Notes: generated by a model from the sequence alone, not told the origin. DNA of 64,000 nucleotides from a virus (UHGV-1370141), one strand, 5' to 3'; counted from the stretch's first letter, positions 4,764 through 39,850 are shown. Numbers and translations: made by a program.

Positions 4764-5294
4764 TTAAGCAGTAAAACCGTCCAATTCACCGTTGGTGGTG
4801 GCCAGGTCAATACGATTATCGACAACCTTCGGTGTAATTACGAAAGTTGCCATTACACCCGGTTTATAACGGAGGTTCTGTTCAGTAACGGTGCACGTCA
4901 CGGTACGCAGAGTGACGTTTTCATGTTCGTCTTTCTGGTCTTCGGTGCTGTACACAACGTCACCTGGCGCGATAGCGTCGTCAGGTTTTACTTTGTTGAT
5001 GTAATATTGTAACCAAGCGCGGAGTTCGTTTTCTTGAACCCAGCGAGACAGATCATCAGTTAGTTCAATCCGTCCTACAACACCTGGCTCCAGACGATCG
5101 TAATGCAGTTCGATTGCACCTTTGAAATTCTCAGAACCTGGTAGTGCAGTCATGGTAACTTTGGTATTCTTACTTTCGCCTTCCAGCGCAGTAGGGAGAC
5201 CAAAGGACACTTCTTTATCAGTAATCTGATGTGGTAGCTCAGTGTTAGCAGCATTATAAAGCGCGACCAACATCATCTGGTTAGTAGCGGCCAT
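4764..5294 (-). CDS. hypothetical protein, probably abundant virion protein
   Basis: 176-aa ORF with codon usage that looks strongly biased; C-terminus ...GELDGFTA is shared with the upstream paralog. Confidence 0.55.
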   Translation of the reverse strand: MAATNQMMLVALYNAANTELPHQITDKEVSFGLPTALEGESKNTKVTMTALPGSENFKGAIELHYDRLEPGVVGRIELTDDLSRWVQENELRAWLQYYINKVKPDDAIAPGDVVYSTEDQKDEHENVTLRTVTCTVTEQNLRYKPGVMATFVITPKVVDNRIDLATTNGELDGFTA

Positions 5295-5343
5295 TATCTT
5301 AGGTCCTTAATAGAACAAGTTAGAGAAATATCGGGGGAGGTCA

Positions 5344-5353
5344 CCCCCCCCCC
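5344..5353. repeat. homopolymeric C10/G10 tract in conserved TCACC-Cn-GATT context
   Basis: Ten consecutive C inside a G/C hairpin about 50 nt upstream of the start of 4764..5294. Confidence 0.6.
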
Positions 5354-5365
5354 GATTTAACTTAC

Positions 5366-5938
5366 TTAGCCACCGACACCCGGCGCAGTGAAGCCATCAA
5401 GTTCACCTTCCAGACCGCCCAGTGCTACCTTCTCAGGAGCTGGGTTGGAATAAGTGAAAGTAGCAATAGTACCCGCCAGGAATTTAATGTGGCCATCGTT
5501 TACTTTGACAGTGTAAACTTTAGCACCGCTGTCGCCTTCGGATTTAACGATAGTGAGTTCGCTCTCTGCAAACGCGTCATCGACATAACCTTTAGTAACC
5601 ATTTCTTTGTTCAGTTTGGTTACAATGGCAGAGTTTTCCAGATCGAGACTACCAGCTTGTTCGTAAGCTTTAGCACCGATCAGGTCTTGGGATGCCAGAC
5701 GGATATAATGGAATTCTTTCTCGCCTTTGAAGTTCTGGCTTTCTGCCTTGGCGGTCAGTGTAATTTTGGTGTTACGACCAGCGTCTCCGCTGTGCGCTTC
5801 GACAGCACCAAAATCGACATCACCAACCGTCAGATTAGAAGCGGTTGCAGAGTTTTTAGCAATTACAGCTTCGATGAGCTGTTGTTTGAAGGCTTTAGCC
5901 ATCTTTTTTACCTCGTAAGTGGTAGGGGTGGATTGCAT
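5366..5938 (-). CDS. hypothetical protein, paralog of 4764..5294
   Basis: 190-aa ORF ending ...LEGELDGFTAPGVGG; similar central NFKG..HY.RL block; biased codons. Confidence 0.55.
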   Translation of the reverse strand: MQSTPTTYEVKKMAKAFKQQLIEAVIAKNSATASNLTVGDVDFGAVEAHSGDAGRNTKITLTAKAESQNFKGEKEFHYIRLASQDLIGAKAYEQAGSLDLENSAIVTKLNKEMVTKGYVDDAFAESELTIVKSEGDSGAKVYTVKVNDGHIKFLAGTIATFTYSNPAPEKVALGGLEGELDGFTAPGVGG

Positions 5939-6040
5939 AAGAAAGTTATTTTAGACATTTCCTAAAATATAGATATGACGGTTGGCAGTAGGCGCTAACC
6001 TGAAAAAATAATTTTTCTTAATTTTAATAAGGGTGAGTTT

Positions 6041-6520
6041 ATGCTAAAACGCATTCTCGTGGTCGTTGCTTTTGTAATGACGTTGGCAGGTTGTGCTATT
6101 CAGCCGAACGCAGAAGGTCAGTTCTCCACCGTACCTGTTGACCAACATGATATGGTCATTTACACCTGTACAGGTGCTTCTCAAGAATTCGTCGATTTTA
6201 AACCGGTACCGTCTAGCCTAAAACTGATGCCCCTTTCGGTGTTAGTCATGGATACAGGGGCGAATTGGGTCGCTACATGGGACGAAGGTAAAATCGAATC
6301 TCCGCAACTTTATAAAGACCTGTTAGGTAAGGTGGACGGTAACTTAAACGTTGTTACCGGTGAGCGCTATTACCGTGTAAACGGGTTACTGTCAAAAACT
6401 CCAACGTTTGCGTATTCTACCATCAACTACAAAACAGGTGAAGGTAAAGGTGTAACGTTCTTCAGATGTCACGAAGGTAGCATTCCGGATACCGGCACTA
6501 TGCTGCACCCGGTAGAATAA
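6041..6520 (+). CDS. putative lipoprotein
   Basis: N-terminus MLKRILVVVAFVMTLAGC has a signal peptide and an LAGC lipobox; lone plus-strand gene with its own terminator. Confidence 0.6.
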   Translation: MLKRILVVVAFVMTLAGCAIQPNAEGQFSTVPVDQHDMVIYTCTGASQEFVDFKPVPSSLKLMPLSVLVMDTGANWVATWDEGKIESPQLYKDLLGKVDGNLNVVTGERYYRVNGLLSKTPTFAYSTINYKTGEGKGVTFFRCHEGSIPDTGTMLHPVE

Positions 6521-6525
6521 TAAAT

Positions 6526-6560
6526 ACCCTCCTGCTTAGCAGGAGGGTAGGTTTATTTTG
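6526..6560 (+). terminator. rho-independent terminator
   Basis: Hairpin accctcctgc-ttag-caggagggt followed by gtttattttg, directly after the lipoprotein stop codon. Confidence 0.7.
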
Positions 6561-6640
6561 TCCGTAGAACGCGCTAGAACGCGTTCTAAGACGGTTTATA
6601 CAAAATAAGGTACAATCATCCTAAGTTTCGGTTTACGCGC

Positions 6641-7156
6641 TTAGATTTTAACTAAGGCGCTCCAATCGATAGGGCTTTGTTTCACGACTTTCGCAGTACC
6701 GCGATTCGGTGACCAGAACGTGATATTCGGTTGGTTACGAACGTCGATATGCAACCAACTGATGTCGCATTCGATAAAGTGAATAAACGGAAACTCATCA
6801 GGATTAGCGGCAATATAATCGTGGACTTGTTTTACCGTTGAATCTAACAGTGTCGCGTCGAACGCATTACCGAACTTGTGCTGACTCCCTGAATCGGAAT
6901 AGAGTTGTAACGCACGTTGTTTATAGTTACCGCCCTTAGGCTTTTCTTGATTGATGAAAAAGTCTAAGGTTCTTAGGCCACGCTGTTGCGCAGCAGACGA
7001 GTTAATCACCATTCTGCCGAAACGGTTACGAATCTGTTGCAGCGAAATCATTAACAACGGGTTCATAAACCGAATTGCAGAATCACCGTATTTGGCGATG
7101 TACGATTGCGGTACTAACTCTTTGAGTTTAAAGTTACTCGGATTTGGATGAAACAT
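6641..7156 (-). CDS. peptidase M15 family (VanY-like D,D- or L,D-peptidase) cell-wall hydrolase
   Basis: SQHKFGNAFD matches the SxHxxGxAxD zinc-binding signature of M15 peptidases; 171 aa. Confidence 0.6.
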   Translation of the reverse strand: MFHPNPSNFKLKELVPQSYIAKYGDSAIRFMNPLLMISLQQIRNRFGRMVINSSAAQQRGLRTLDFFINQEKPKGGNYKQRALQLYSDSGSQHKFGNAFDATLLDSTVKQVHDYIAANPDEFPFIHFIECDISWLHIDVRNQPNITFWSPNRGTAKVVKQSPIDWSALVKI

Positions 7157-7808
7157 CTTCCCTCCCAGACAGAAAAGCCCGTTTGATGTTCAGGTATTTG
7201 ACATTAACGGGACAACCTGTGGTGATATCAACACGTTCGTGGTCAGGAATAGCAGGCTCCTTAAACTCACGAACGAACAAATAGTTTCGATTGTAATCTA
7301 ACGTACGGTAATCGTTAGTGGTATAAGACGGCTTCGCGTTAGGGTCTACGTAAGCATCCCAACCGAACCCCGCCACGGCTTTATAAAACGTTTGGCAGAT
7401 ATACGGTGAGATTTCCAACGACTGCATAATACGCAGGAATGTTAAGTCAGAGAACTCTTTATCGATAATACGCGAAACGTTACCACCCGGTGTCATGGGA
7501 TAGCTACGCTCCGTGTTACATTTTTGATAGAGTAAGTCGTGAATGCAGGCCGCAGGTGCCCACGGTCCGTCAGGATGGAAAATTCCCTGGAGGTGTTCAG
7601 GAATTGACGCTAAATCGGTAACGAACCCTTTCGGTGCTGTTAACCACAGTTGCGTGTCAGGCAATACACCCGTTAAATAAACCGCACGGTCTAAGTGTAC
7701 GTGGTCGTGATAAATCTCACGTAACGTAAACGGATAATGGTAATCCTCCGTTAATACAAACCACTTATTGTCTAAACGTTTATATTGAAGCTTCTCCATT
7801 ACCCACAC
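7134..7808 (-). CDS. hypothetical protein (DUF1353-like)
   Basis: 224-aa ORF containing FVTDLASIP...HD..Y, which resembles the DUF1353 signature; the family assignment is from memory. Confidence 0.45.
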   Translation of the reverse strand: MWVMEKLQYKRLDNKWFVLTEDYHYPFTLREIYHDHVHLDRAVYLTGVLPDTQLWLTAPKGFVTDLASIPEHLQGIFHPDGPWAPAACIHDLLYQKCNTERSYPMTPGGNVSRIIDKEFSDLTFLRIMQSLEISPYICQTFYKAVAGFGWDAYVDPNAKPSYTTNDYRTLDYNRNYLFVREFKEPAIPDHERVDITTGCPVNVKYLNIKRAFLSGREDVSSKSE

Positions 7809-7915: not shown

Positions 7916-8506
7916 TCATTTTACTAACCCCGCTTTTACCGCATAATCTGCCATTTCTCTGAAGACGCGGCCGTACCAACCGTAGGTGTATTTCTCGTTT
8001 CTCTTACGTTTTTCGGAGATTTCCGTGTAGTAAGTTACTTGGTGCGAGATTAACGCAAAGATTAAAATGCTCAACCCTTCATCTTTACGATATTTCAGGT
8101 AGGCGTTCAACGCACCCAGTGTCTTAGGACCCATACCGCCGTCGGTGTCAATATCTGCGTAAAGTTTCCCTTCGTTATTTAAAACGTTGAGAATACGTTG
8201 TAACGATTTCACACAGTTAGCACGCCCTGCGTTAATACCAAAATCAAACATCCGGTCTGCGAGTAACGGTGAGATAGCGAAAATCTCATCAAGTTTGAGC
8301 TTCTTCCACCAACCGCGATCGTAAATATCAAACGCTTGTGCACGGGTGAGGTCTTTCATTTTCCCTGTGTAGCCGTATTCGCGTGCAGTAGTTAAAGTTA
8401 CACCGTGACAGGTTTCTCCACCTTTGTCGTCAGGGTCGTTGACGTACCCGCCTTCTAAATCCGTTTTGGATTCAATAATACCTTCTTTAGTCCAACGTTC
8501 AGCCAT
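7916..8506 (-). CDS. GH108-family lysozyme with peptidoglycan-binding domain (endolysin-like)
   Basis: N-terminal EGGYVNDPDDKGGETCHGVT matches the glycoside hydrolase 108 signature; the C-terminal region resembles PG_binding_3. Confidence 0.7.
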   Translation of the reverse strand: MAERWTKEGIIESKTDLEGGYVNDPDDKGGETCHGVTLTTAREYGYTGKMKDLTRAQAFDIYDRGWWKKLKLDEIFAISPLLADRMFDFGINAGRANCVKSLQRILNVLNNEGKLYADIDTDGGMGPKTLGALNAYLKYRKDEGLSILIFALISHQVTYYTEISEKRKRNEKYTYGWYGRVFREMADYAVKAGLVK

Positions 8507-8569: not shown

Positions 8570-9049
8570 TTATTTTTTCTTCTTAGCGCGTGATGGCTTA
8601 GCTGGCGGTGTTTCAACAGCCGGTTTACGTGCAACACGCACTGTAAAACCACCAACCCAGGTCAGACACTCAGGACGGAAGAAAATACCGTGTTCGATTG
8701 CGCTACCGTCCAACGGTAACTCACCAACCTGTTCTACCCATACATCGTCTTCTGTAAGGGTTAGGCTATACTGTTCGTTAATTACGGGCAGTAGGTCAGC
8801 GGTAGTCGTTGCAGACTCCACTAACAGTTTCGGTAATACGTTCAGGAAATACAAACCTGCGTCAATGCGGTTATACTGGAACGTTTGTTCGTTAGTGTAA
8901 CCGAGATTCTTAATTGACGCAACTGTGATTTCGGTATTGTACGTACCGGTGGTTACGACCGGGTCACCCAGCGTGACTTTGGTGGTGTCGAACTCAGCGT
9001 CTGGGTTAGCCTTTTTAATAAGGTCGAAGATAGTTTCTTGATTGGTCAT
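8570..9049 (-). CDS. hypothetical protein
   Basis: 159-aa ORF in the minus-strand block, lysine-rich C-terminus; no motif. Confidence 0.5.
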   Translation of the reverse strand: MTNQETIFDLIKKANPDAEFDTTKVTLGDPVVTTGTYNTEITVASIKNLGYTNEQTFQYNRIDAGLYFLNVLPKLLVESATTTADLLPVINEQYSLTLTEDDVWVEQVGELPLDGSAIEHGIFFRPECLTWVGGFTVRVARKPAVETPPAKPSRAKKKK

Positions 9050-9062
9050 TACTGTAATCCTC

Positions 9063-9911
9063 TTAATCTAAGAATCCCGGTAAGACCGGATTAGTCTGCG
9101 CTAATTCAATCTTCGACTTCGGACGATCGGTGCCGTTAAAGTGGATTAACAGATTACCGGTCAGGTTAGAACACAGCGGGCTGAGCGTCAGCACCAACAC
9201 ACGCGTGAACTTCGTATTTGCGCCTTCGTAACCTGCGGTTGGACCATCGTAAATAATCTTCGCACCATACAGGTTGTTAGCCGCGTTCTTAGGTACACTT
9301 ACCCATTTCTCATCAACGACGTTAGCCAGTTTAGTGGCTAACTCAGCCAGGTCGACGGTGTCGTTGATAGTAATCGGGTCAAGGTAATCTTTTTCTGCGG
9401 TGAAATCAATCGGGTGAGAATAAACCGCAGCGTTACCTTTCTTAGTAGACGGATACTCTACCAGATTCTCTAATTGAGTAACTGGTAACAGTTCAGTCAG
9501 GTCAATAGGATCACGCAGCGTAAGTGTTACTACACCGCACCACTCGTAAGATTTCTCGTTAGCGGTAAGCTGATGGGTTTCACCTTCAACTTTTGCGTCA
9601 ACGATATCCGAGGGTAAAATATTTAGGTTGTATTTTGCGTTAATCGCATTAAGCAAATCCGATGCGGTTACCACACTGTCGTTACCGAACACCAACTCAC
9701 CGGTTAGGTAGTCAGGTAAATTACGACGGTGGTAAGTCACGGTTAAAGTAGTAGACTCATCGCCTTTGAGTTTAGAGGTCAGAACCACCTGGGTATCAAC
9801 CCCAGTACCGGTAGGTTCTCCGATATCAACATCACTGAAAGTCAACGGTGGACTAATATTGTTTTCAGTGTTGATGAGTTTTAGCAGTTTCTGTTTTGAC
9901 GTAAGAGACAT
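9063..9911 (-). CDS. hypothetical protein
   Basis: 282-aa ORF, tightly spaced with the downstream gene; no motif. Confidence 0.5.
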   Translation of the reverse strand: MSLTSKQKLLKLINTENNISPPLTFSDVDIGEPTGTGVDTQVVLTSKLKGDESTTLTVTYHRRNLPDYLTGELVFGNDSVVTASDLLNAINAKYNLNILPSDIVDAKVEGETHQLTANEKSYEWCGVVTLTLRDPIDLTELLPVTQLENLVEYPSTKKGNAAVYSHPIDFTAEKDYLDPITINDTVDLAELATKLANVVDEKWVSVPKNAANNLYGAKIIYDGPTAGYEGANTKFTRVLVLTLSPLCSNLTGNLLIHFNGTDRPKSKIELAQTNPVLPGFLD

Positions 9912-10044
9912 CGCGTTAACTCACAGTAAGTAAAAAGGTTTAAGAGGTCGTTTTACATCCCTCAGCCAGCATAGGAATAGTCGGGTAGGGTGTAAGTAAA
10001 GCGGTGTCAAAATAACAAAAAAGAAAAGGGAAAGAAAATTAATT

Positions 10045-10070
10045 CCGCTATAGACCGAAGCCTATAGCGG
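10045..10070 (-). terminator. terminator hairpin
   Basis: ccgctatag-accgaagc-ctatagcgg inverted repeat directly after the stop of 10078..10509, followed by a T-rich tract on the minus strand. Confidence 0.55.
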
Positions 10071-10077
10071 AGAGTGG

Positions 10078-10509
10078 TTAGCGAACGTTGTGTGCTAAGT
10101 ACATTAGCGTACGGGTGTCGATATCACGAGAAGTTTGTGACATTTGGTTCAGTAGAGTGCTGGCAGTAGGGTCGTTGTAAACACGACTTAACCACTCGTC
10201 AACCATTTCTGGTACAGTGTCGACTAAAAGCGGATAGTTAAGATTTTCCAGTGTGTATTCAACGAATTCGTGCATCAGATTCTGGTCACGATGCATAGTG
10301 TCACCTAACTCACCTACAGGGTACTCTTCACGAGGACGTTTACCCCAGCTACAGATGTGCATGTAGTTAGTATTCACAATTTCTTGATATTCTTCTAACT
10401 TAACTAAATCGAAGTCAGTATTTGGACGACAGAAACCTGCTAAAACGCCTAAAGCAATCGGATTGTTACGAATGTAGTTACGGATATCATCTTTTAATAG
10501 GAAAAACAT
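10078..10509 (-). CDS. hypothetical protein (paralog of 11775..12218)
   Basis: 143 aa; N-terminal region (..IRNNPIALGVLAGF..LEEYQEIVNTNY..) aligns with 11775..12218 (..IRKYPASIPVLASL..VEKFHEVVKSSY..). Confidence 0.5.
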   Translation of the reverse strand: MFFLLKDDIRNYIRNNPIALGVLAGFCRPNTDFDLVKLEEYQEIVNTNYMHICSWGKRPREEYPVGELGDTMHRDQNLMHEFVEYTLENLNYPLLVDTVPEMVDEWLSRVYNDPTASTLLNQMSQTSRDIDTRTLMYLAHNVR

Positions 10510-10561: not shown

Positions 10562-10585
10562 TGGTTGAATTTAGAACGTCGTTAA

Positions 10586-11752
10586 TTAACGACGTTTTTG
10601 ACAATTAGGGCAGTTGCAACCTACGCCAGAAGATATTTCTCTAAAGTACGCGTCGAGTAAGTGCTCGTTATTATTAAGAAAACGAACTGACCACAAGTCA
10701 CGCAGATGAGTTTTTAACTTTCCAATAATACCGGGTTCATAGTTGAGTAGAATGGTAAGTGCGTTGTCTGTGTAAGTCCACTGACGGACTTTCTCAGGAA
10801 ACCAACGAGTGATATCACGCATAAACGTATCGGCATCTTCTTTCCCAATAGCAGTGATTGTCAGAAGACGTAGACGGTTGTTAACAAACTCATCAATGAG
10901 ACTATGAATTTCTTCTTCAAAAGCAATGTTCCACCATTTCCATTTAAAGGTGAGTTTTTCGCCCTCGAGTTTGGTCTCTACCTTGGTAGAATAGAATGCT
11001 GTCAAAGTGTCATTAATCGCTTCGGCATCTGGACCAGTGTATGTAAAGGCTTTCAACACATCGGACTCTTCACGCGGTTGCTCCCCTTCTTCGAGTTGGT
11101 TAAGAAAAATTTTCTTTGTTAACTTACGCATACAGATGTTCAATTGATTAATAACAACAGGGTCATTATCAACAATCACTGTTAAAGTATCGCCAACATA
11201 ATTAGACTGGCGAATTTTCTCCTTGTGTTCGTGAACAACTATACGCATGAATTCGTCCGCTTCACCTTTTCCGATACCTTGAAACGAAATAAGACGAACG
11301 GTGTCGTTATCGATCATCTCAGCGACAGAACGTACTTCTTCCATGAGGTTACGATCGTCTTTCTTCAATCGAACGACGAGTTTGCTGTTATCCCAGTAAA
11401 TGCCTAAATCGTCGGGATAGAAGGTCTCTAACGCCTCTTTAATATCCTTAATCTTTTCGCCTTCGTACCAGAGGACGTGCGGTTCGTCTTTCTGCTGCTC
11501 TTCGACTTTCGGTTGTTCAGTCTCGGCCGTTTCTACCGGGTTGAGCAACTCACCGATTTCCACCGCGATAGTGTCGCAAAGATAATCGTTGCAGTGAGTC
11601 CAGTAGAACACGATGCTTTCATCATTGACCTGCTCTACGCGGAAATGTACACCTTTATCCAGGAATATACGATAAAGTTGATCGAGTAACTGTGCTTCAG
11701 GAACCGGACGGATTTCGGTTTTAACGAGCGGTGTAATCTCGATATTATACAT
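10586..11752 (-). CDS. hypothetical protein with internal duplicated ~60-aa domain
   Basis: 388 aa; two internal repeats (..ISFQGIGKGEADEFMRIVVHEHKEKIRQ.. and ..TITAIGKEDADTFMRDITRWFPEKVRQ..); C-terminal CNCPNC. Confidence 0.5.
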   Translation of the reverse strand: MYNIEITPLVKTEIRPVPEAQLLDQLYRIFLDKGVHFRVEQVNDESIVFYWTHCNDYLCDTIAVEIGELLNPVETAETEQPKVEEQQKDEPHVLWYEGEKIKDIKEALETFYPDDLGIYWDNSKLVVRLKKDDRNLMEEVRSVAEMIDNDTVRLISFQGIGKGEADEFMRIVVHEHKEKIRQSNYVGDTLTVIVDNDPVVINQLNICMRKLTKKIFLNQLEEGEQPREESDVLKAFTYTGPDAEAINDTLTAFYSTKVETKLEGEKLTFKWKWWNIAFEEEIHSLIDEFVNNRLRLLTITAIGKEDADTFMRDITRWFPEKVRQWTYTDNALTILLNYEPGIIGKLKTHLRDLWSVRFLNNNEHLLDAYFREISSGVGCNCPNCQKRR

Positions 11753-17511: not shown

Positions 17512-18026
17512 TAGTGGCCTCCGAATGTTAAGACACGGTTATCTGCGGTAACGATTAAATCGTTGTCTTTTACTACAGCGGCTTCTTCATCGTTACCGAA
17601 AACCAGAACGGAGAATTGGCCTTTATAACCTAACGAGTTGGGTGAAACCTGTAACGTTACAGCGTCTTTCCCTACGGTAAATGATTCGTCGGTAAGATCG
17701 TCGGGTTGTAAATTACAACCACAAGCCGCGTTAATTCCGTCGATTAGATCGTGTGCGGTAAAGCCATTACCGGAAACCTTTACCAGAATAGGTTGCTGGT
17801 TTAACCACCGCTCTGCGGTTAAACGGTTGTAATAAATCTGTAACGTTCTGTTGTCCGGACGTTTTATCTTTACAACAGCAGTGGTGTCACGATCCATTTC
17901 GTTACTGGTCTTTACGTCGCTGACTTCAACCTCGTTCTCTTGCAGGTCGAGCTGGAGGTCATGGTTAACCAGTGAAATAACCATGTTAAGTGAAGTTAAC
18001 GACAAATCTGGCGTGAATTGTTCCAC
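17511..18026 (-). CDS. hypothetical protein (paralog of 27278..27841), tail fiber-associated
   Basis: N-terminal ..PDLSLTSLNMVISLVNHDLQLDL.. aligns with ..PDLSLTSAELVVALINHDNGLQL.. of 27278..27841; GTG start preceded by AGGAGG. Confidence 0.5.
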   Translation of the reverse strand: MEQFTPDLSLTSLNMVISLVNHDLQLDLQENEVEVSDVKTSNEMDRDTTAVVKIKRPDNRTLQIYYNRLTAERWLNQQPILVKVSGNGFTAHDLIDGINAACGCNLQPDDLTDESFTVGKDAVTLQVSPNSLGYKGQFSVLVFGNDEEAAVVKDNDLIVTADNRVLTFGGH

Positions 18027-18081
18027 GTATGGTTACCTCCTATGATTGGGGAGACGTAAAATGTTGGCTAAAAACATTTCA

Positions 18082-18090
18082 CCCCCCCCC
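18082..18090. repeat. homopolymeric C9/G9 tract in conserved TCACC-Cn-GATT context
   Basis: Nine consecutive C about 55 nt upstream of the start of 17511..18026; same context as the C10 tract at 5344-5353. Confidence 0.6.
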
Positions 18091-37333: not shown

Positions 37334-37693
37334 TTAGTGTGTTGCGGTGTTAGTAACAAAACGAATATTCTTCGCGGTACGTTTAAGGGACGTATTTGCA
37401 ACGTAGTCCAACGCAGACTCTACGTGAACCGTTACTGAGCAACGCCCTTTAACGGAGTTAAACGTAATCTGATATTTCAGGCGAATTGCATCAGCAACCT
37501 TCATCATTATCGGTAGACTCAGGCGTTCGCTACGATCGTTCTTAATAGATGAAATAACCGGTTGTGAAACTTTCGCAAGCTGGGCAAGTTCACGCTGTGT
37601 AATGTCTTTCGCTGTCAAATGACGAATCACGTAAGAAAGATGAAGACCGAATTTACGTTTTGCTAAAACAATAGAGTTGTGATTATAAGCCAT
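37334..37693 (-). CDS. HTH (XRE-like) DNA-binding protein
   Basis: ..LTAKDITQRELAQLAKVSQPVISSIKNDRS.. is a helix-turn-helix; start placed at the internal ATG (MAYNHNS..) because the ORF-track extension to 37831 covers the promoter-like motif and hairpin. Confidence 0.55.
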   Translation of the reverse strand: MAYNHNSIVLAKRKFGLHLSYVIRHLTAKDITQRELAQLAKVSQPVISSIKNDRSERLSLPIMMKVADAIRLKYQITFNSVKGRCSVTVHVESALDYVANTSLKRTAKNIRFVTNTATH

Positions 37694-37720
37694 GGTAATT
37701 AATCCTAATCTGTAGAACAA

Positions 37721-37769
37721 GTCGTAAAAGAGATTACGATGTAATCTCACTAAGGTAATATATATCTGA
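37721..37769 (-). promoter_or_regulatory. conserved promoter-like motif plus 5' hairpin (copy 3)
   Basis: Hairpin gagattac-gat-gtaatctc followed by ctaaggtaatatatatctgag; located between the tmk terminator and the HTH gene start. Confidence 0.5.
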
Positions 37770-37781
37770 GAAAAAATTAAA

Positions 37782-37805
37782 TAACCCCTACCCGAAGGTA
37801 GGGGG
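37782..37805 (-). terminator. rho-independent terminator
   Basis: cccctacc-cgaa-ggtaggggg directly after the tmk stop, with an A-rich flank on the plus strand. Confidence 0.55.
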
Positions 37806-37812
37806 TATGTGA

Positions 37813-38436
37813 TTAATTCTCTAAAATACAAGCAACGATTTCAGCCGCTTTTAAACGGTAATCGTCGTCTTGCTTCACGGGTAATAAATGGTGTAGACAA
37901 CCGCCTTCAGTGAGAATGTGGTGGGCGAAACGGTAGTGGTCACGTAACGCTTCCCAGCTTTGGTTGTCTTTTAAATACTTAACGGTAAGAACCTCATCGT
38001 CCCAATTCTTACCTTGTTCTTCTACCCGTTTCTTAAAGCGTGCTACTGCGCCGTCGTAATCCACATCTGTCCAAACGTACAAATCTGGTGCGTTGAAATG
38101 ACGCGTTAGCTTACGTCGGAAAACTTCGTCTTTACCATCGACGCCCTGGTAAACGACTGTAGAGGGACAGAACCTGTCGAAAATAACAACATCGTAATCG
38201 TCAACAACGTGGTCTAACGTGTGAAGGAAATCGTCGCACATCGCTTCGGCAATTTTTGCTTTTGCTGCGGACTGAATGACTAAACTGCGTGCGCGGATAC
38301 CCGCTTCGGTCTCCGTCGTAGGGTGATTACGGATGCAGACCTTTAACCCCGCAGATTCCAGCATACCTTTTACTATTTTGCACAACGTCGATTTCCCAGA
38401 AAAGTCAGGGCCATCAATAGACACTGTCTTAAGCAT
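37813..38436 (-). CDS. tmk: thymidylate kinase
   Basis: MLKTVSIDGPDFSGKST (P-loop) and FDRFCPSTVVYQG match the Tmk GxxGxGKST and DR..SxxAYQG motifs; start placed at the ATG at 38436 rather than 38484, which would overlap a hairpin. Confidence 0.7.
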   Translation of the reverse strand: MLKTVSIDGPDFSGKSTLCKIVKGMLESAGLKVCIRNHPTTETEAGIRARSLVIQSAAKAKIAEAMCDDFLHTLDHVVDDYDVVIFDRFCPSTVVYQGVDGKDEVFRRKLTRHFNAPDLYVWTDVDYDGAVARFKKRVEEQGKNWDDEVLTVKYLKDNQSWEALRDHYRFAHHILTEGGCLHHLLPVKQDDDYRLKAAEIVACILEN

Positions 38437-39241: not shown

Positions 39242-39850
39242 TTATTGATGGTCAACAATCGGACCACTCCACACTTCTGACGTTTCCGGTGCGGTGAGAT
39301 TAGCAGCCTGTGCAGACGGTACACACAGTATAACTAACCCTTGCTTAGCAAGATAGTGCTGCATTCTTGCGGCCTGTACTGCGGTGTCCACAATAACGAG
39401 CTCAGCGCCTCGTAGAAGCGCTAAAGCCGCTTGGCCTTCTTGCGGTGTGGTAAACGCGTCTGAGTCGTCCAGAATGCGTTTGAGGCGGTTATACGCAAGT
39501 CCTGTAACGTTACAGTGTTCGGTACGTAAATCAACAACCATTTCGTTATAGACCCCCACAACCTGTTGCGTAGAGTTTGGATAAAAGCGAAACGAGGCAC
39601 GACGACGCGCACGACGGACTTCAGAAATCGCACGTTGGAGTACCACTAATACGTATTTCGGTGCTGCGTCTGACGTCGGTCTACGCATCTTCGCTAACCG
39701 CGCTGCCAAATCGAGAACTTTCGTTAACGGGTAGCGGTGCTTAAACCCCTCCCGTTCAATCGTCACCCCACGCTTTGGTAGCTTACCGGTTTTGTTGATA
39801 TACGCCACCGTAATCAGCAGTAATGAGTCGAGAATCATCTCTGACATCAC
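39242..39850 (-). CDS. hypothetical protein
   Basis: 202-aa ORF. Confidence 0.5.
   Translation of the reverse strand: MMSEMILDSLLLITVAYINKTGKLPKRGVTIEREGFKHRYPLTKVLDLAARLAKMRRPTSDAAPKYVLVVLQRAISEVRRARRRASFRFYPNSTQQVVGVYNEMVVDLRTEHCNVTGLAYNRLKRILDDSDAFTTPQEGQAALALLRGAELVIVDTAVQAARMQHYLAKQGLVILCVPSAQAANLTAPETSEVWSGPIVDHQ

What the first reader, a model, noticed from the sequence alone, without database searches (positions are those of the whole stretch)
6562..6585. Perfect 12-bp palindrome AGAACGCGTTCT with adjacent half-site repeat
The sequence agaacgcgctagaacgcgttct contains a perfect self-complementary 12-mer preceded by a direct copy of its left half, in the convergent intergenic region after the lipoprotein terminator. 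It could be a protein-binding site or part of a bidirectional terminator.
Basis: seen in the sequence. Interest (0 to 1): 0.25.

Follow-up and report, generated by a model that had tools for sequence, protein, structure and literature searches.

The report
Palindrome marks a widespread repeat element
The palindrome is real but incidental: it is the junction of 10-bp repeats that form one copy of a ~35-45-bp non-coding DNA element of unknown function, shared by this jumbo phage's relatives, T5-like phages (inside the T5 injection-stop region), other phages and IncX plasmids.

Summary
The sequence exists, about 4 nt right of the stated coordinates. The perfect palindrome is 14 bp (TAGAACGCGTTCTA, 6575-6588) and its left half is repeated at 6565-6574. 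By itself it is unremarkable: the window holds 22 palindromes of 12 bp or more against 17 expected, and no second copy. The dyad symmetry is not conserved in close relatives. The true bidirectional terminator is the neighbouring hairpin at 6525-6549.

What is conserved is an array of helically phased 10-bp units. Read on the minus strand it is CCGTCTTAGAAC-GCGTTCTAGC-GCGTTCTACG (6594 to 6563). A matrix built from other clades finds this element at only three intergenic loci in the whole SPN3US genome.

The same element occurs in 597 phage records, including T5, where it lies inside the annotated injection stop signal. It also occurs in about 1,300 mostly IncX plasmids, next to the replication origin, and in a prophage family of E. 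coli. One 29-mer is identical between a relative of this phage and IncX plasmids.

The best reading is a DNA-level platform for a sequence-specific binding protein that is still unidentified. This particular copy seems dispensable. The Cro-type operator and terminator readings are not supported.

The parts
6563..6594 (-). Phased-repeat element. It has three units read on the minus strand: CCGTCTTAGAAC (6594 to 6583), GCGTTCTAGC (6582 to 6573) and GCGTTCTACG (6572 to 6563). The GCGT cores are exactly 10 bp apart.
   Evidence: Matrix hit at 6561-6589 (-), 30.0 bits, using a matrix built without this clade. It is orthologous to the SPN3US element at 137549-137577. It is paralogous to the elements upstream of an early promoter and in the large non-coding region of relatives. 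It shares 22-23 of 29 bases with the copies in T5, My1, the E. coli prophage and IncX3 copy 2, and 20 of 29 with IncX3 copy 1.
6575..6588 (.). It arises at the junction of the first and second units (..GAAC|GCGTTC..).
   Evidence: The junction base varies between C and T across family members (GAAT|GCG in L012, L032, L037, L044), so the dyad is not constrained.
6565..6574 (+). It is the third unit on the other strand.
   Evidence: It is absent as a clean 10-bp deletion in L003 and L008, whose neighbouring protein is 99% identical to the window's.
6525..6549 (.). The real bidirectional intrinsic terminator. It has an 11-12-bp stem, with T-runs at 6553-6559 for the plus-strand gene and at 6515-6524 (read on the minus strand) for the minus-strand gene.
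   Evidence: The terminator scan finds it on both strands. The stem is kept with different sequences in the three clades: CCCTCCTGC/GCAGGAGGG, CCCTACTCC/GGAGTAGGG and CCCACTCCC/GGGAGTGGG.
6553..6608 (.). Outer inverted repeat TTATTTTGT (6553-6561) / ACAAAATAA (6600-6608). It brackets the element and extends the predicted hairpin.
   Evidence: It is only partly kept in the other clades.
6041..6520 (+). Lipoprotein gene of 159 aa (signal peptide with LAGC lipobox), family phrog_9559 of unknown function. The element lies just after its terminator.
   Evidence: It is syntenic with SPN3US gp107.
6641..7156 (-). Gene of 171 aa in an endolysin-family PHROG (HxxxxxxD...H motif seen by eye), 79% identical to SPN3US gp108. 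The element lies in its 3' untranslated stretch, upstream of the terminator.
37334..37831 (-).

Best explanation
The palindrome plus 'half-site' is one copy of a conserved non-coding DNA element. The element is three to four direct repeats of about 10 bp, with the consensus AAAnCGC-TTAGAAY-GCGTTnnAGA-GCGTTTTAGA-GG. Its invariant GCGT cores sit exactly one helical turn apart. The palindrome is a by-product of the way one unit abuts the next.

Shown: the window is from an SPN3US-like jumbo phage, and the element is orthologous across that group. It recurs at three intergenic loci per genome. It is strongly conserved at the locus upstream of an early promoter, where the flanking sequence has randomised. 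It also occurs in T5-like and other virulent phages of Enterobacterales and Vibrio, in a prophage family of E. coli, and next to the replication origin of IncX plasmids.

Inferred: it works at the DNA level as a platform on which several protomers of one sequence-specific DNA-binding protein line up on the same face of the helix. Because the carriers are so unrelated, that protein may be host-encoded, but it is unidentified and this was not tested. What the binding achieves is also unknown; replication or entry control, or promoter regulation, are the candidates.

This particular copy sits in a transcription-free pocket beside a bidirectional terminator. It appears to be an accessory copy under relaxed constraint.
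For: Identity of the phage: the flanking protein is 79% identical to SPN3US gp108, with conserved gene order.

Orthology: 19 homologous intergenic regions were aligned. The invariant block is T..AAC....TCTAA, at 6575-6589 in the window.

Three loci per genome: a matrix built without SPN3US-clade sequences scores only three loci of the complete 240-kb SPN3US genome above every shuffle. They score 34.8, 29.6 and 20.9 bits, against a shuffle maximum of 18.7. In 826 kb of fetched relatives, hits of at least 17 bits fall only at those three kinds of locus.

Purifying selection: in a 12-phage alignment of the early-promoter locus, the only conserved blocks are the terminator stem, the element (invariant GCG....AG.GCGT) and the promoter.

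Spread beyond this group: an exact-pattern scan of IMG/VR gave 64 loci. Of these, 53 lie outside ORFs of at least 90 aa, and their flanks extend the consensus beyond the pattern searched. A 48-nt consensus matches 597 phage records, 1,321 plasmids and 1,319 of 5,426 E. coli genomes.

Known contexts: in T5 the copy lies at 9352-9380, inside the annotated injection stop signal. It overlaps a repeat region that the literature calls extremely conserved and of unknown function (10.1101/866236). IncX3 and an IncN-X1 hybrid plasmid carry two direct copies about 190 nt apart, and an IncX4 plasmid one clear copy, beside the iterons and DnaA boxes of the origin.

Horizontal sharing: a 29-mer is identical (29 of 29) between a close relative of this phage and IncX1/X3-type plasmids.

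DNA rather than RNA: the element's position relative to transcription is inconsistent between loci. It is in a 3' untranslated stretch here, but downstream of a terminator and upstream of a promoter at the early-promoter locus. It occurs in both orientations in the large non-coding region.
Against: No binding protein has been identified, and no tool here can show binding. I recognised no known operator consensus, but that rests on memory and is not a test.

At this locus the element is barely more conserved than its flanks. Across all clades, 21 of 32 element columns vary against 37 of 46 spacer columns. Within the window's own clade the figures are 4 of 32 against 8 of 46. It has decayed in one clade and in Erwinia phage pEa_SNUABM_29, and it has lost a unit in L003 and L008.

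No A+T-rich tract was noted next to it here; DnaA boxes were not searched for in the window. The window has no second copy.

The identical 29-mer in unrelated replicons fits horizontal spread of a selfish mini-element as well as it fits shared function.

The minus-strand RNA of every homologue folds better than the plus strand, which leaves an RNA role open.
Confidence: 0.55

Rival explanations
1. The copy is a relic or a selfish mini-element. A short sequence spreads horizontally by recombination or transposition among phages and plasmids. The copy at 6563-6594 is a decaying passenger with no function for this phage, even if other copies have been put to use.
For: A 29-mer is identical between a close relative of this jumbo phage and IncX plasmids, and it includes the atypical unit GCGATACAGC. 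Copies occur as inverted pairs 50-130 nt apart at the early-promoter locus and in the large non-coding region, which resembles terminal inverted repeats. CR5-like relatives have an 'empty' site, with the terminator directly abutting the early promoter. This copy has decayed, lost a unit or mutated in close relatives, and is little more conserved than its flanks.
Against: The early-promoter copy is kept, in one orientation, across phages whose neighbouring protein has diverged to 65% identity, while the flanks have randomised. The T5-like copy is reported as extremely conserved in all T5-like phages. No target-site duplication or clear termini were found. Copy number is low, one to four per genome. 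No transposase is associated with it.
Confidence: 0.2
2. The element acts as an RNA stem-loop in the 3' untranslated stretch of the minus-strand gene 6641..7156. The hairpin just upstream of the intrinsic terminator would stabilise or process the mRNA 3' end, or pause RNA polymerase.
For: The minus-strand RNA forms a 14-bp stem with one bulge, at -19.2 kcal/mol and z = -5.5. In all 16 distinct homologues the minus-strand fold is more stable than the plus-strand fold. Two variants (the G-to-A change in L012 and the G-to-A change shared by L004 and L009-L011) create G.U pairs on the minus strand only. Two pairs show compensatory changes between the window and pEa_SNUABM_29 (by eye).
Against: RNAalifold finds no consensus structure over the element. 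The stems use different registers and arms in different clades, and SPN3US pairs other segments. L004, L003/L008 and L018 have weak or no hairpins (z = -2.3, -2.25 and +0.2). The paralogous copies lie in stretches not expected to be transcribed, or in both orientations. The unit contains the self-complementary TCTAGA, so tandem copies form hairpins automatically. Rfam gives nothing.
Confidence: 0.12
3. The element is an upstream promoter element. The repeats would be activator or repressor sites, or a -35 substitute, for a promoter immediately downstream. This resembles the lambda CII sites, TTGC-N6-TTGC, which straddle the -35 region.
For: The GCGT-N6-GCGT geometry matches that arrangement. 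At the best-conserved locus the element always points toward, and lies about 20-45 nt upstream of, the early-promoter motif CAGATATATATTAC. In many unrelated phages a TATAT- or TTAT-like box follows the last unit. In IncX3 the second copy lies about 75 nt upstream of what I read as the stbDE promoter.
Against: At this locus the next feature, 12 nt downstream, is a terminator hairpin, so no gene could be served. The sigma-70 scan finds no promoter between 6550 and 6640. Only one of about eight SPN3US early-type promoters has the element. The distance to the promoter varies. The T5 copy lies in a stretch with no annotated genes. Phages of this type are reported to transcribe with their own RNA polymerases (PMC7598289).
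Confidence: 0.08
4. One reading: a palindromic operator bound by a dimer of the phage Cro/C1-type HTH protein, or simply a chance palindrome with no meaning.
For: The dyad is a perfect 14 bp. An XRE-family HTH gene exists in the window behind an early-type promoter.
Against: The dyad is broken or absent in most relatives and in this clade's own paralogous copy. Palindromes of this size occur at chance frequency. Against pure chance, the site scores 30 bits with a matrix built from other clades and is orthologous across the group.
Confidence: 0.05

Closest known systems
IRD' segment of the IRD'-spacer-IRC' repeat in the injection stop signal region (Repeat Region 3) of the phage T5 left terminal repeat
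   Same: It is the same sequence element. T5 9352-9380, TTAGAATGCGATCTAGGACGTTTTAGGCA, scores 25.6 bits with the SPN3US-derived matrix and shares 22 of 29 bases with the window copy. It is non-coding, lies about 55 nt after a predicted rho-independent terminator, and is highly conserved among T5-like phages.
   Different: In T5 it is embedded in a 1.2-kb maze of repeats with eight DnaA boxes and lies in the DNA that enters the cell first. Here it stands alone between convergent genes of a jumbo phage, with no such repeat maze around it; DnaA boxes were not searched for in the window. Its function in T5 is itself unknown; the literature offers only hypotheses (10.1101/866236). I did not find the 10-bp phased substructure or the occurrence outside T5-like phages described in the library I could search.
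Iterons of plasmid and phage replication origins (for example R6K/IncX pi iterons and lambda O-protein iterons)
   Same: Both are tandem direct repeats in helical phase, located in non-coding DNA. Other copies of this element lie next to origin-like regions. In IncX plasmids they are about 350-550 nt from the DnaA boxes and iterons of the origin. In SPN3US-like phages they lie in a 1.7-kb non-coding region with a 110-nt A+T tract.
   Different: The units are about 10 bp, not 17-22 bp. In IncX plasmids the element is distinct from the true 22-bp iterons. No initiator gene is adjacent. No A+T tract was noted at this locus; DnaA boxes were not searched for here.
Lambda CII activator sites (TTGC-N6-TTGC at pRE, pI and paQ); from my own knowledge
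   Same: Both have a tetranucleotide direct repeat one helical turn apart (GCGT-N6-GCGT). Both occur at a handful of loci per phage genome, and one locus is promoter-proximal.
   Different: The sequence is different, and there are three to four units rather than two. It is not positioned over a -35 region here. It is present in replicons that were not checked for a CII homologue.
Rho-independent (intrinsic) terminator
   Same: A G+C-containing hairpin can form on either strand.
   Different: No U-run follows it on either strand. The genuine bidirectional terminator lies 15-25 nt away at 6525-6549.

Membership tests
Phased 10-bp repeat element (SPN3US-like three-locus element; same as the T5 IRD' segment and the IncX origin-adjacent element) | Two or more GCGT(T) cores exactly 10 bp apart, preceded by a TTAGA(A/G)N unit | tested here: met
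   The minus strand reads CTTAGAAC-GCGTTCTAGC-GCGTTCTACG at 6591 to 6563. It matches the invariant columns GCG....AG.GCGT of alignment A4.
Phased 10-bp repeat element (SPN3US-like three-locus element; same as the T5 IRD' segment and the IncX origin-adjacent element) | Scores above genome background with a matrix built from other lineages | tested here: met
   30.0 bits at 6561-6589 (-). The next unrelated site in the window scores below 10 bits. The best score per shuffled window averaged 9.2 (sd 3.9; one of 60 reached 26.7).
Phased 10-bp repeat element (SPN3US-like three-locus element; same as the T5 IRD' segment and the IncX origin-adjacent element) | Intergenic location and presence at the orthologous position in relatives | tested here: met
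   It lies in the 120-bp convergent gap. Orthologues of at least 36 bits occur in L001, L004, L007, L009-L012, L016, L017 and L019. It is decayed in L005, L006, L013-L015, L018 and L002, and one unit is deleted in L003 and L008.
Phased 10-bp repeat element (SPN3US-like three-locus element; same as the T5 IRD' segment and the IncX origin-adjacent element) | Bound by a specific protein | not testable with these tools
   No binding data exist. No candidate emerged from the neighbouring genes.
Intrinsic terminator | Stable G+C-rich stem-loop immediately followed by a U-run | tested here: not met
   A hairpin is predicted. The sequence after it is AGACGGTTTATAC on the plus strand and CGGACAAAATAAACC on the minus strand. 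The terminator scan reports only the hairpin at 6525-6549.
Dyad-symmetric operator of a Cro/C1 (XRE) repressor | Dyad symmetry conserved in orthologous sites, with repeated operators sharing the half-site | tested here: not met
   The perfect dyad is present in only 6 of 19 aligned homologues. No further copy of the half-site exceeds chance in the window. Paralogous copies in the same clade are not palindromic.
Replication-origin iterons | Tandem direct repeats adjacent to an A+T-rich unwinding element, DnaA boxes and/or an initiator gene | tested here: inconclusive
   Tandem repeats are present. No A+T-rich tract was noted at this locus, the neighbouring genes gave no initiator-type domain, and DnaA boxes were not searched for here. 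Such features accompany other copies, in the large non-coding region of relatives, in T5 and in IncX plasmids. GC skew follows gene orientation and is uninformative.
Miniature inverted-repeat mobile element | Terminal inverted repeats with target-site duplication, and empty sites in relatives | tested here: inconclusive
   Inverted pairs exist at the two other loci, and CR5-like phages have an empty site. No target-site duplication or defined ends were seen. Here the units abut head-to-head with nothing between them.
Known RNA family (Rfam 15) | Match at or near a family's gathering score | tested here: not met
   Only sub-threshold chance matches in 5800-7300. Six loci carrying the element gave only two tRNA matches, neither at an element.

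The most novel reading that the evidence does not exclude
The element is the recognition site of a single conserved DNA-binding factor, perhaps host-encoded. Many unrelated mobile elements of Enterobacterales and Vibrio would recruit this factor at the DNA regions that control entry, early expression or replication. These carriers include T5-like phages (in the injection stop signal), nucleus-forming jumbo phages, other virulent phages, a prophage family of E. coli and IncX plasmids (next to the gamma origin). Identifying the factor would give an experimental handle on the unresolved T5 injection-stop mechanism and on the unknown origins or control regions of SPN3US-like jumbo phages.
Probability: 0.3. 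Interest if true: 0.7.

Novelty: new member of a known kind. Interest (0 to 1): 0.45.

Why it matters
The palindrome on its own would not matter. The element it belongs to might.

It is a short non-coding sequence kept, in places base for base, in replicons that share almost nothing else. In T5 it lies in a region called 'extremely conserved' and of unknown function, the candidate injection stop signal, which has been an open question since the 1980s.

Finding the same module in jumbo phages and beside IncX plasmid origins narrows what it can be. A common factor, or a horizontally mobile module, fits better than a T5-specific injection device. It also offers three simpler systems in which to test it. 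For SPN3US-like phages it flags three candidate control loci in genomes whose origins and regulatory sites are unmapped.

If the element turns out to be only a selfish mini-repeat, the finding is of minor, descriptive interest.

Tried and rejected
Further copies in the window. The 14-mer with up to 3 mismatches, the 9-mer with up to 1 mismatch, AACGCNNTCTAA, AACG-N(2-5)-TCTAA, AACGCGTT and AACGNCGTT all occur at about chance frequency, and mostly inside genes. The only similar intergenic site is 10571-10583, next to a 22-bp palindrome, and I judged it a coincidence.

Clusters of the AACGC pentamer, and density of single 10-bp units, are too uninformative. The pentamer is common throughout the genome.

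The sigma-70 promoter scan finds nothing in 6550-6640. No ORF of at least 20 aa lies inside the gap. No tRNA is present. Rfam gives nothing. RNAalifold finds no consensus structure over the element.

A late-promoter reading by analogy with the AR9 motif AACA-N6-TA was dropped. The motif does not recur upstream of structural genes, and here it would drive antisense transcription.

GC skew of SPN3US only tracks gene orientation.

Genes next to the three SPN3US loci carry no informative domains.

A megablast of the locus against the deposited phage genome collection found nothing.

Searching with SPN3US gp201 and gp002 failed to reach this phage's own clade. The regions were reached instead through the gp192 homologue and the terminase.

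Literature searches found no description of the element, whether by SPN3US intergenic repeats or by literal strings of the sequence. The IncX papers located oriT and the alpha, beta and gamma origins only coarsely.

From memory I compared the consensus with many E. coli operator motifs (DnaA, IHF, Fis, Lrp, RcsAB, DeoR, SlyA, Ter/Tus, boxA, P1 C1, the sigma-E promoter, MarA). None fits. These comparisons are recollections, not tests.

Full report
**1. What is in the sequence.** The self-complementary 12-mer AGAACGCGTTCT (6576-6587) extends to a perfect 14-bp palindrome, TAGAACGCGTTCTA (6575-6588). The 9-mer TAGAACGCG is directly repeated 10 bp upstream, at 6565-6573.

The site lies in the 120-bp gap between two convergent ORFs. 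One is 6041..6520 (+), which encodes a 159-aa protein starting MLKRILVVVAFVMTLAGC, a signal peptide with a lipobox. The other is 6641..7156 (-), a 171-aa protein in an endolysin-family PHROG. A strong hairpin at 6525-6549, with T-runs on both sides, is detected as a terminator on both strands.

**2. Is it more than chance?** As a palindrome, no. The window has 22 perfect palindromes of at least 12 bp, against 17.2 +/- 3.8 in dinucleotide-preserving shuffles. For at least 14 bp the count is 10 against 4.3 +/- 2.0. Relaxed searches for the 14-mer, the 9-mer and several sub-motifs find nothing beyond chance elsewhere in the 64 kb.

**3. Where the window comes from.** The 171-aa protein is 79% identical to gp108 of Salmonella phage SPN3US (genus Seoulvirus), and gene order is conserved. 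The window therefore comes from an SPN3US-like jumbo phage. No close DNA relative is in the deposited phage collection. Relatives whose homologue of this protein is 95-99% identical are present in IMG/VR and in ENA/JGI metagenome contigs.

**4. Conservation at the orthologous locus.** Nineteen homologous intergenic regions fall into three clades:
- the window's own clade: window, L003, L004 and L008-L012;
- a clade whose flanking protein is 95% identical (97% over the part held for L018): L005, L006, L013-L015 and L018;
- the SPN3US clade, together with Erwinia phage pEa_SNUABM_29.

The terminator stem is kept through different sequences in each clade, so it is a genuine structure.

The palindrome is not kept. 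It is perfect in only 6 of the 19. L004 and L012 mutate its centre. L003 and L008 lack exactly one 10-bp unit. The other clades carry non-palindromic sequences, such as CTAAAACGCTCTGTAACGCTCTCTAA in SPN3US. What stays invariant is T..AAC....TCTAA.

Across all clades, 21 of 32 element columns vary, against 37 of 46 in the adjacent spacer. Within the window's clade the figures are 4 of 32 against 8 of 46. At this locus the constraint is therefore modest.

**5. The palindrome is a junction of phased repeats.** Read on the minus strand, the site is CCGTCTTAGAAC | GCGTTCTAGC | GCGTTCTACG (6594 to 6563). The SPN3US orthologue reads ..TTTTAGAGA | GCGTTACAGA | GCGTTTTAGA | GGGT.

While scanning the complete SPN3US genome, assembled, I found that CCCTCTAAA occurs four times, always in intergenic DNA. 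The best non-self matches of the SPN3US element fall in two other intergenic regions.

A 29-column position weight matrix built without any SPN3US-clade sequence scores exactly three loci of the 240-kb genome above every shuffle:
- 137549, the orthologue of this finding: 34.8 bits;
- 65359: 29.6 bits;
- 240170: 20.9 bits.

The shuffle maximum was 18.7 bits. The same approach applied to the window, with its own clade left out of the matrix, gives 30.0 bits at 6561-6589 (-) and nothing else. In 826 kb of fetched relatives, hits of at least 17 bits occur only at these three kinds of locus.

The first kind, 'region 1', lies between the terminator of the gp201 homologue and an early-type promoter motif, TTTCAGATATATATTAC. 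In a 12-phage alignment of this region the flanks are unalignable, but the element is conserved, with invariant GCG....AG.GCGT. CR5-like phages lack it there.

The second kind, 'region 3', is a non-coding stretch of about 1.7 kb. It holds a 110-nt pure A+T tract, GC-rich palindromes and GATC clusters. Copies there occur in inverted pairs.

The palindrome in the window arises because the first unit ends in ..GAAC and the next begins GCGTTC... That junction base varies between C and T across family members, so the dyad is incidental.

**6. The element is not confined to this phage group.** An exact scan of IMG/VR for TTAGARNGCGTTNNAGNGCGT returned 64 loci. Of these, 53 lie outside ORFs of at least 90 aa. 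Their flanks extend the similarity beyond the pattern searched, to aaa..AAA.c..cTTAGAA.GCGTTt.AGAGCGTTTTAG.Gg.ttat. These are therefore real relatives of the element and not random hits.

They include T5-like phages. Salmonella phage SP01 and Pectobacterium phage My1 carry the element in their terminal repeats.

In T5 itself the element lies at 9352-9380 (25.6 bits). This is inside the annotated 'injection stop signal' (9140-10149) and about 55 nt after a predicted terminator. It overlaps IRD' of the IRD'-spacer-IRC' repeat. Davison describes that repeat as extremely conserved among T5-like phages and of unknown function (10.1101/866236).

A 48-nt consensus matches 597 of 50,697 phage records, almost always with no annotated feature beneath the match. 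The records include:
- T5-like phages of Salmonella, Klebsiella and Escherichia;
- Pectobacterium phages My1, DU_PP_V, Wc4 and phiTE;
- Erwinia jumbo phages;
- Vibrio phages Ceto and River4;
- Cronobacter phage PBES 02.

It also matches 1,321 plasmids; the three plasmid hits I inspected carry IncX replicons (IncX3, IncX4 and an IncN-X1 hybrid). And it matches 1,319 of 5,426 complete E. coli genomes.

In E. coli chromosomes the one hit I inspected sits in a long non-coding stretch of a prophage integrated beside a tRNA-Thr gene next to proA; a 56-nt version of that copy is found in 702 genomes. In the IncX3 plasmid and the IncN-X1 hybrid, two direct copies about 190 nt apart lie between the origin and the stbDE genes; the IncX4 plasmid has one clear copy in the same origin region. 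The origin there comprises 22-bp iterons, an A+T tract and DnaA boxes, plus a stretch that I recognise as resembling the ColE1 primosome assembly site.

The window copy shares 22-23 of 29 bases with the T5, My1, prophage and IncX3 copy-2 versions, and 20 of 29 with IncX3 copy 1. The region-1 29-mer of a close relative of this phage is identical, 29 of 29, to IncX3 copy 1 (also present in the IncN-X1 hybrid), including an atypical unit.

**7. How it most likely works.** Shown: the element is a conserved, horizontally shared, non-coding array of three to four units of about 10 bp, with invariant GCGT cores one helical turn apart.

Inferred: it is a DNA-level platform for several protomers of one sequence-specific protein bound on the same face of the helix.

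A DNA-level role is favoured over an RNA role for two reasons. The transcriptional context differs between loci: a 3' untranslated stretch here, an apparently untranscribed stretch between a terminator and a promoter in region 1, and both orientations in region 3. And no common structure is recovered.

Because the carriers appear to share little else, the binder may be host-encoded. Neither the gene overlap between carriers nor the binder was tested, and I could not match the consensus to any operator I know.

What the binding achieves is unknown. Its recurrent neighbours are origin-like regions, DnaA boxes, the T5 first-step-transfer boundary and early promoters. These point to control of replication, DNA entry or early expression.

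This copy lies 12 nt from a bidirectional terminator, with no gene to serve. It has decayed or lost a unit in near relatives. I read it as an accessory copy under relaxed constraint.

**8. Rivals.**
- (a) A selfish or relic mini-element. The 29 of 29 identity across replicons, the inverted pairs, the empty site in CR5-like phages and the decay seen here all favour it. The deep conservation at region 1 and in T5-like phages argues against it as the whole story.
- (b) An RNA hairpin in the 3' untranslated stretch. Minus-strand folds are always the more stable. But registers shift between clades, several relatives lose the stem, and the unit contains the self-complementary TCTAGA, so tandem copies pair automatically.
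- (c) An upstream promoter element of the lambda CII type. The geometry fits, but there is no promoter here.
It is rejected on conservation and distribution. The HTH protein (37334..37831) is a generic XRE-family member.

**9. Novelty and score.** The kind of element is familiar: a direct-repeat, iteron-like binding array. One instance, the T5 IRD' segment, is in the literature as a conserved repeat of unknown function.

I found no description of the 10-bp substructure, the three-locus distribution in SPN3US-like phages, or the sharing with IncX plasmids and other phages. That statement is limited to the library I could search.

The original observation deserves a low score. The element it points to is a moderately interesting and directly testable lead. 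Overall interest is 0.45.

Noticed in passing
window 13285, 16829, 37755 (all minus strand): An exact 14-mer, CAGATATATATTAC, lies upstream of minus-strand genes. One of them is the HTH gene 37334..37831. The same motif occurs about 8-10 times in SPN3US and is invariant in 12 related phages. It looks like the A+T-rich early-promoter consensus described for virion RNA polymerases of this phage type (PMC7598289).
   Followed up: partly
window 10575-10596: A perfect 22-bp palindrome, AACGTCGTTAATTAACGACGTT, spans the stop codon of ORF 10586..11752 and is followed by a terminator hairpin. It is the longest palindrome in the window. Each arm contains AACGNCGTT, reminiscent of the AACGCGTT core studied here.
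   Followed up: no
whole window; 17649-17662 and 39502-39515: There is a mild excess of perfect palindromes of at least 14 bp (10 against 4.3 +/- 2.0). The 14-mer CTGTAACGTTACAG occurs twice, inside two different ORFs. The hexamer AACGTT is over-represented (146 against 87 +/- 12).
   Followed up: no
window about 5335-5345 and about 18075-18085: Homopolymer runs of 10 and 9 G lie inside terminator-like hairpins of intergenic regions. They could be slippage-prone tracts or sequencing-sensitive spots.
   Followed up: no
window 4764..5294, 5366..5938, 8570..9049 (minus strand): Three paralogous DUF7941 virion-protein genes flank the lysis-related cluster. That cluster comprises a GH108 endolysin (7916..8506), a DUF1353 protein (7134..7808) and the endolysin-family gene 6641..7156. 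SPN3US has one fewer copy between the gp105 and gp107 homologues.
   Followed up: no
L051 15000-16650; SPN3US 239883-240413 plus 1-1185 (outside the window): A non-coding region of about 1.7 kb holds a 110-nt pure A+T tract with an internal palindrome, AATAATACCTTTAGGTATTATT. The tract is flanked by GC-rich palindromes and GATC clusters, which is origin-like. IMG/VR contigs of two clades (L050, L052) break within or close to this tract.
   Followed up: partly
L134 (T5) about 9405-9425: A perfect LexA-box-like palindrome, TACTGTATAAATATACAGTA, lies about 35 nt to the right of the T5 copy of the element, inside the injection stop signal. My1-type phages have ATGTATAAATATACAG about 10 nt after their copy.
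   Followed up: no
L031 6258-6286 against L136 3509-3537: The 29-mer TCAGAATGCGATACAGCGCGTTTTAGAGG is identical between a close relative of this jumbo phage and an IncX3 plasmid (also present in an IncN-X1 hybrid). This implies recent horizontal exchange of the module between a virulent phage and plasmids.
   Followed up: partly
L135 3672-7268 (E. coli chromosome next to tRNA-Thr and proA): A prophage family seen in about 13% of complete E. coli genomes (by a 56-nt probe from its non-coding stretch) starts with about 3.6 kb almost free of annotated genes. This stretch contains the element. An early operon follows with small proteins, one of which looks like a ribbon-helix-helix protein by eye.
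   Followed up: no
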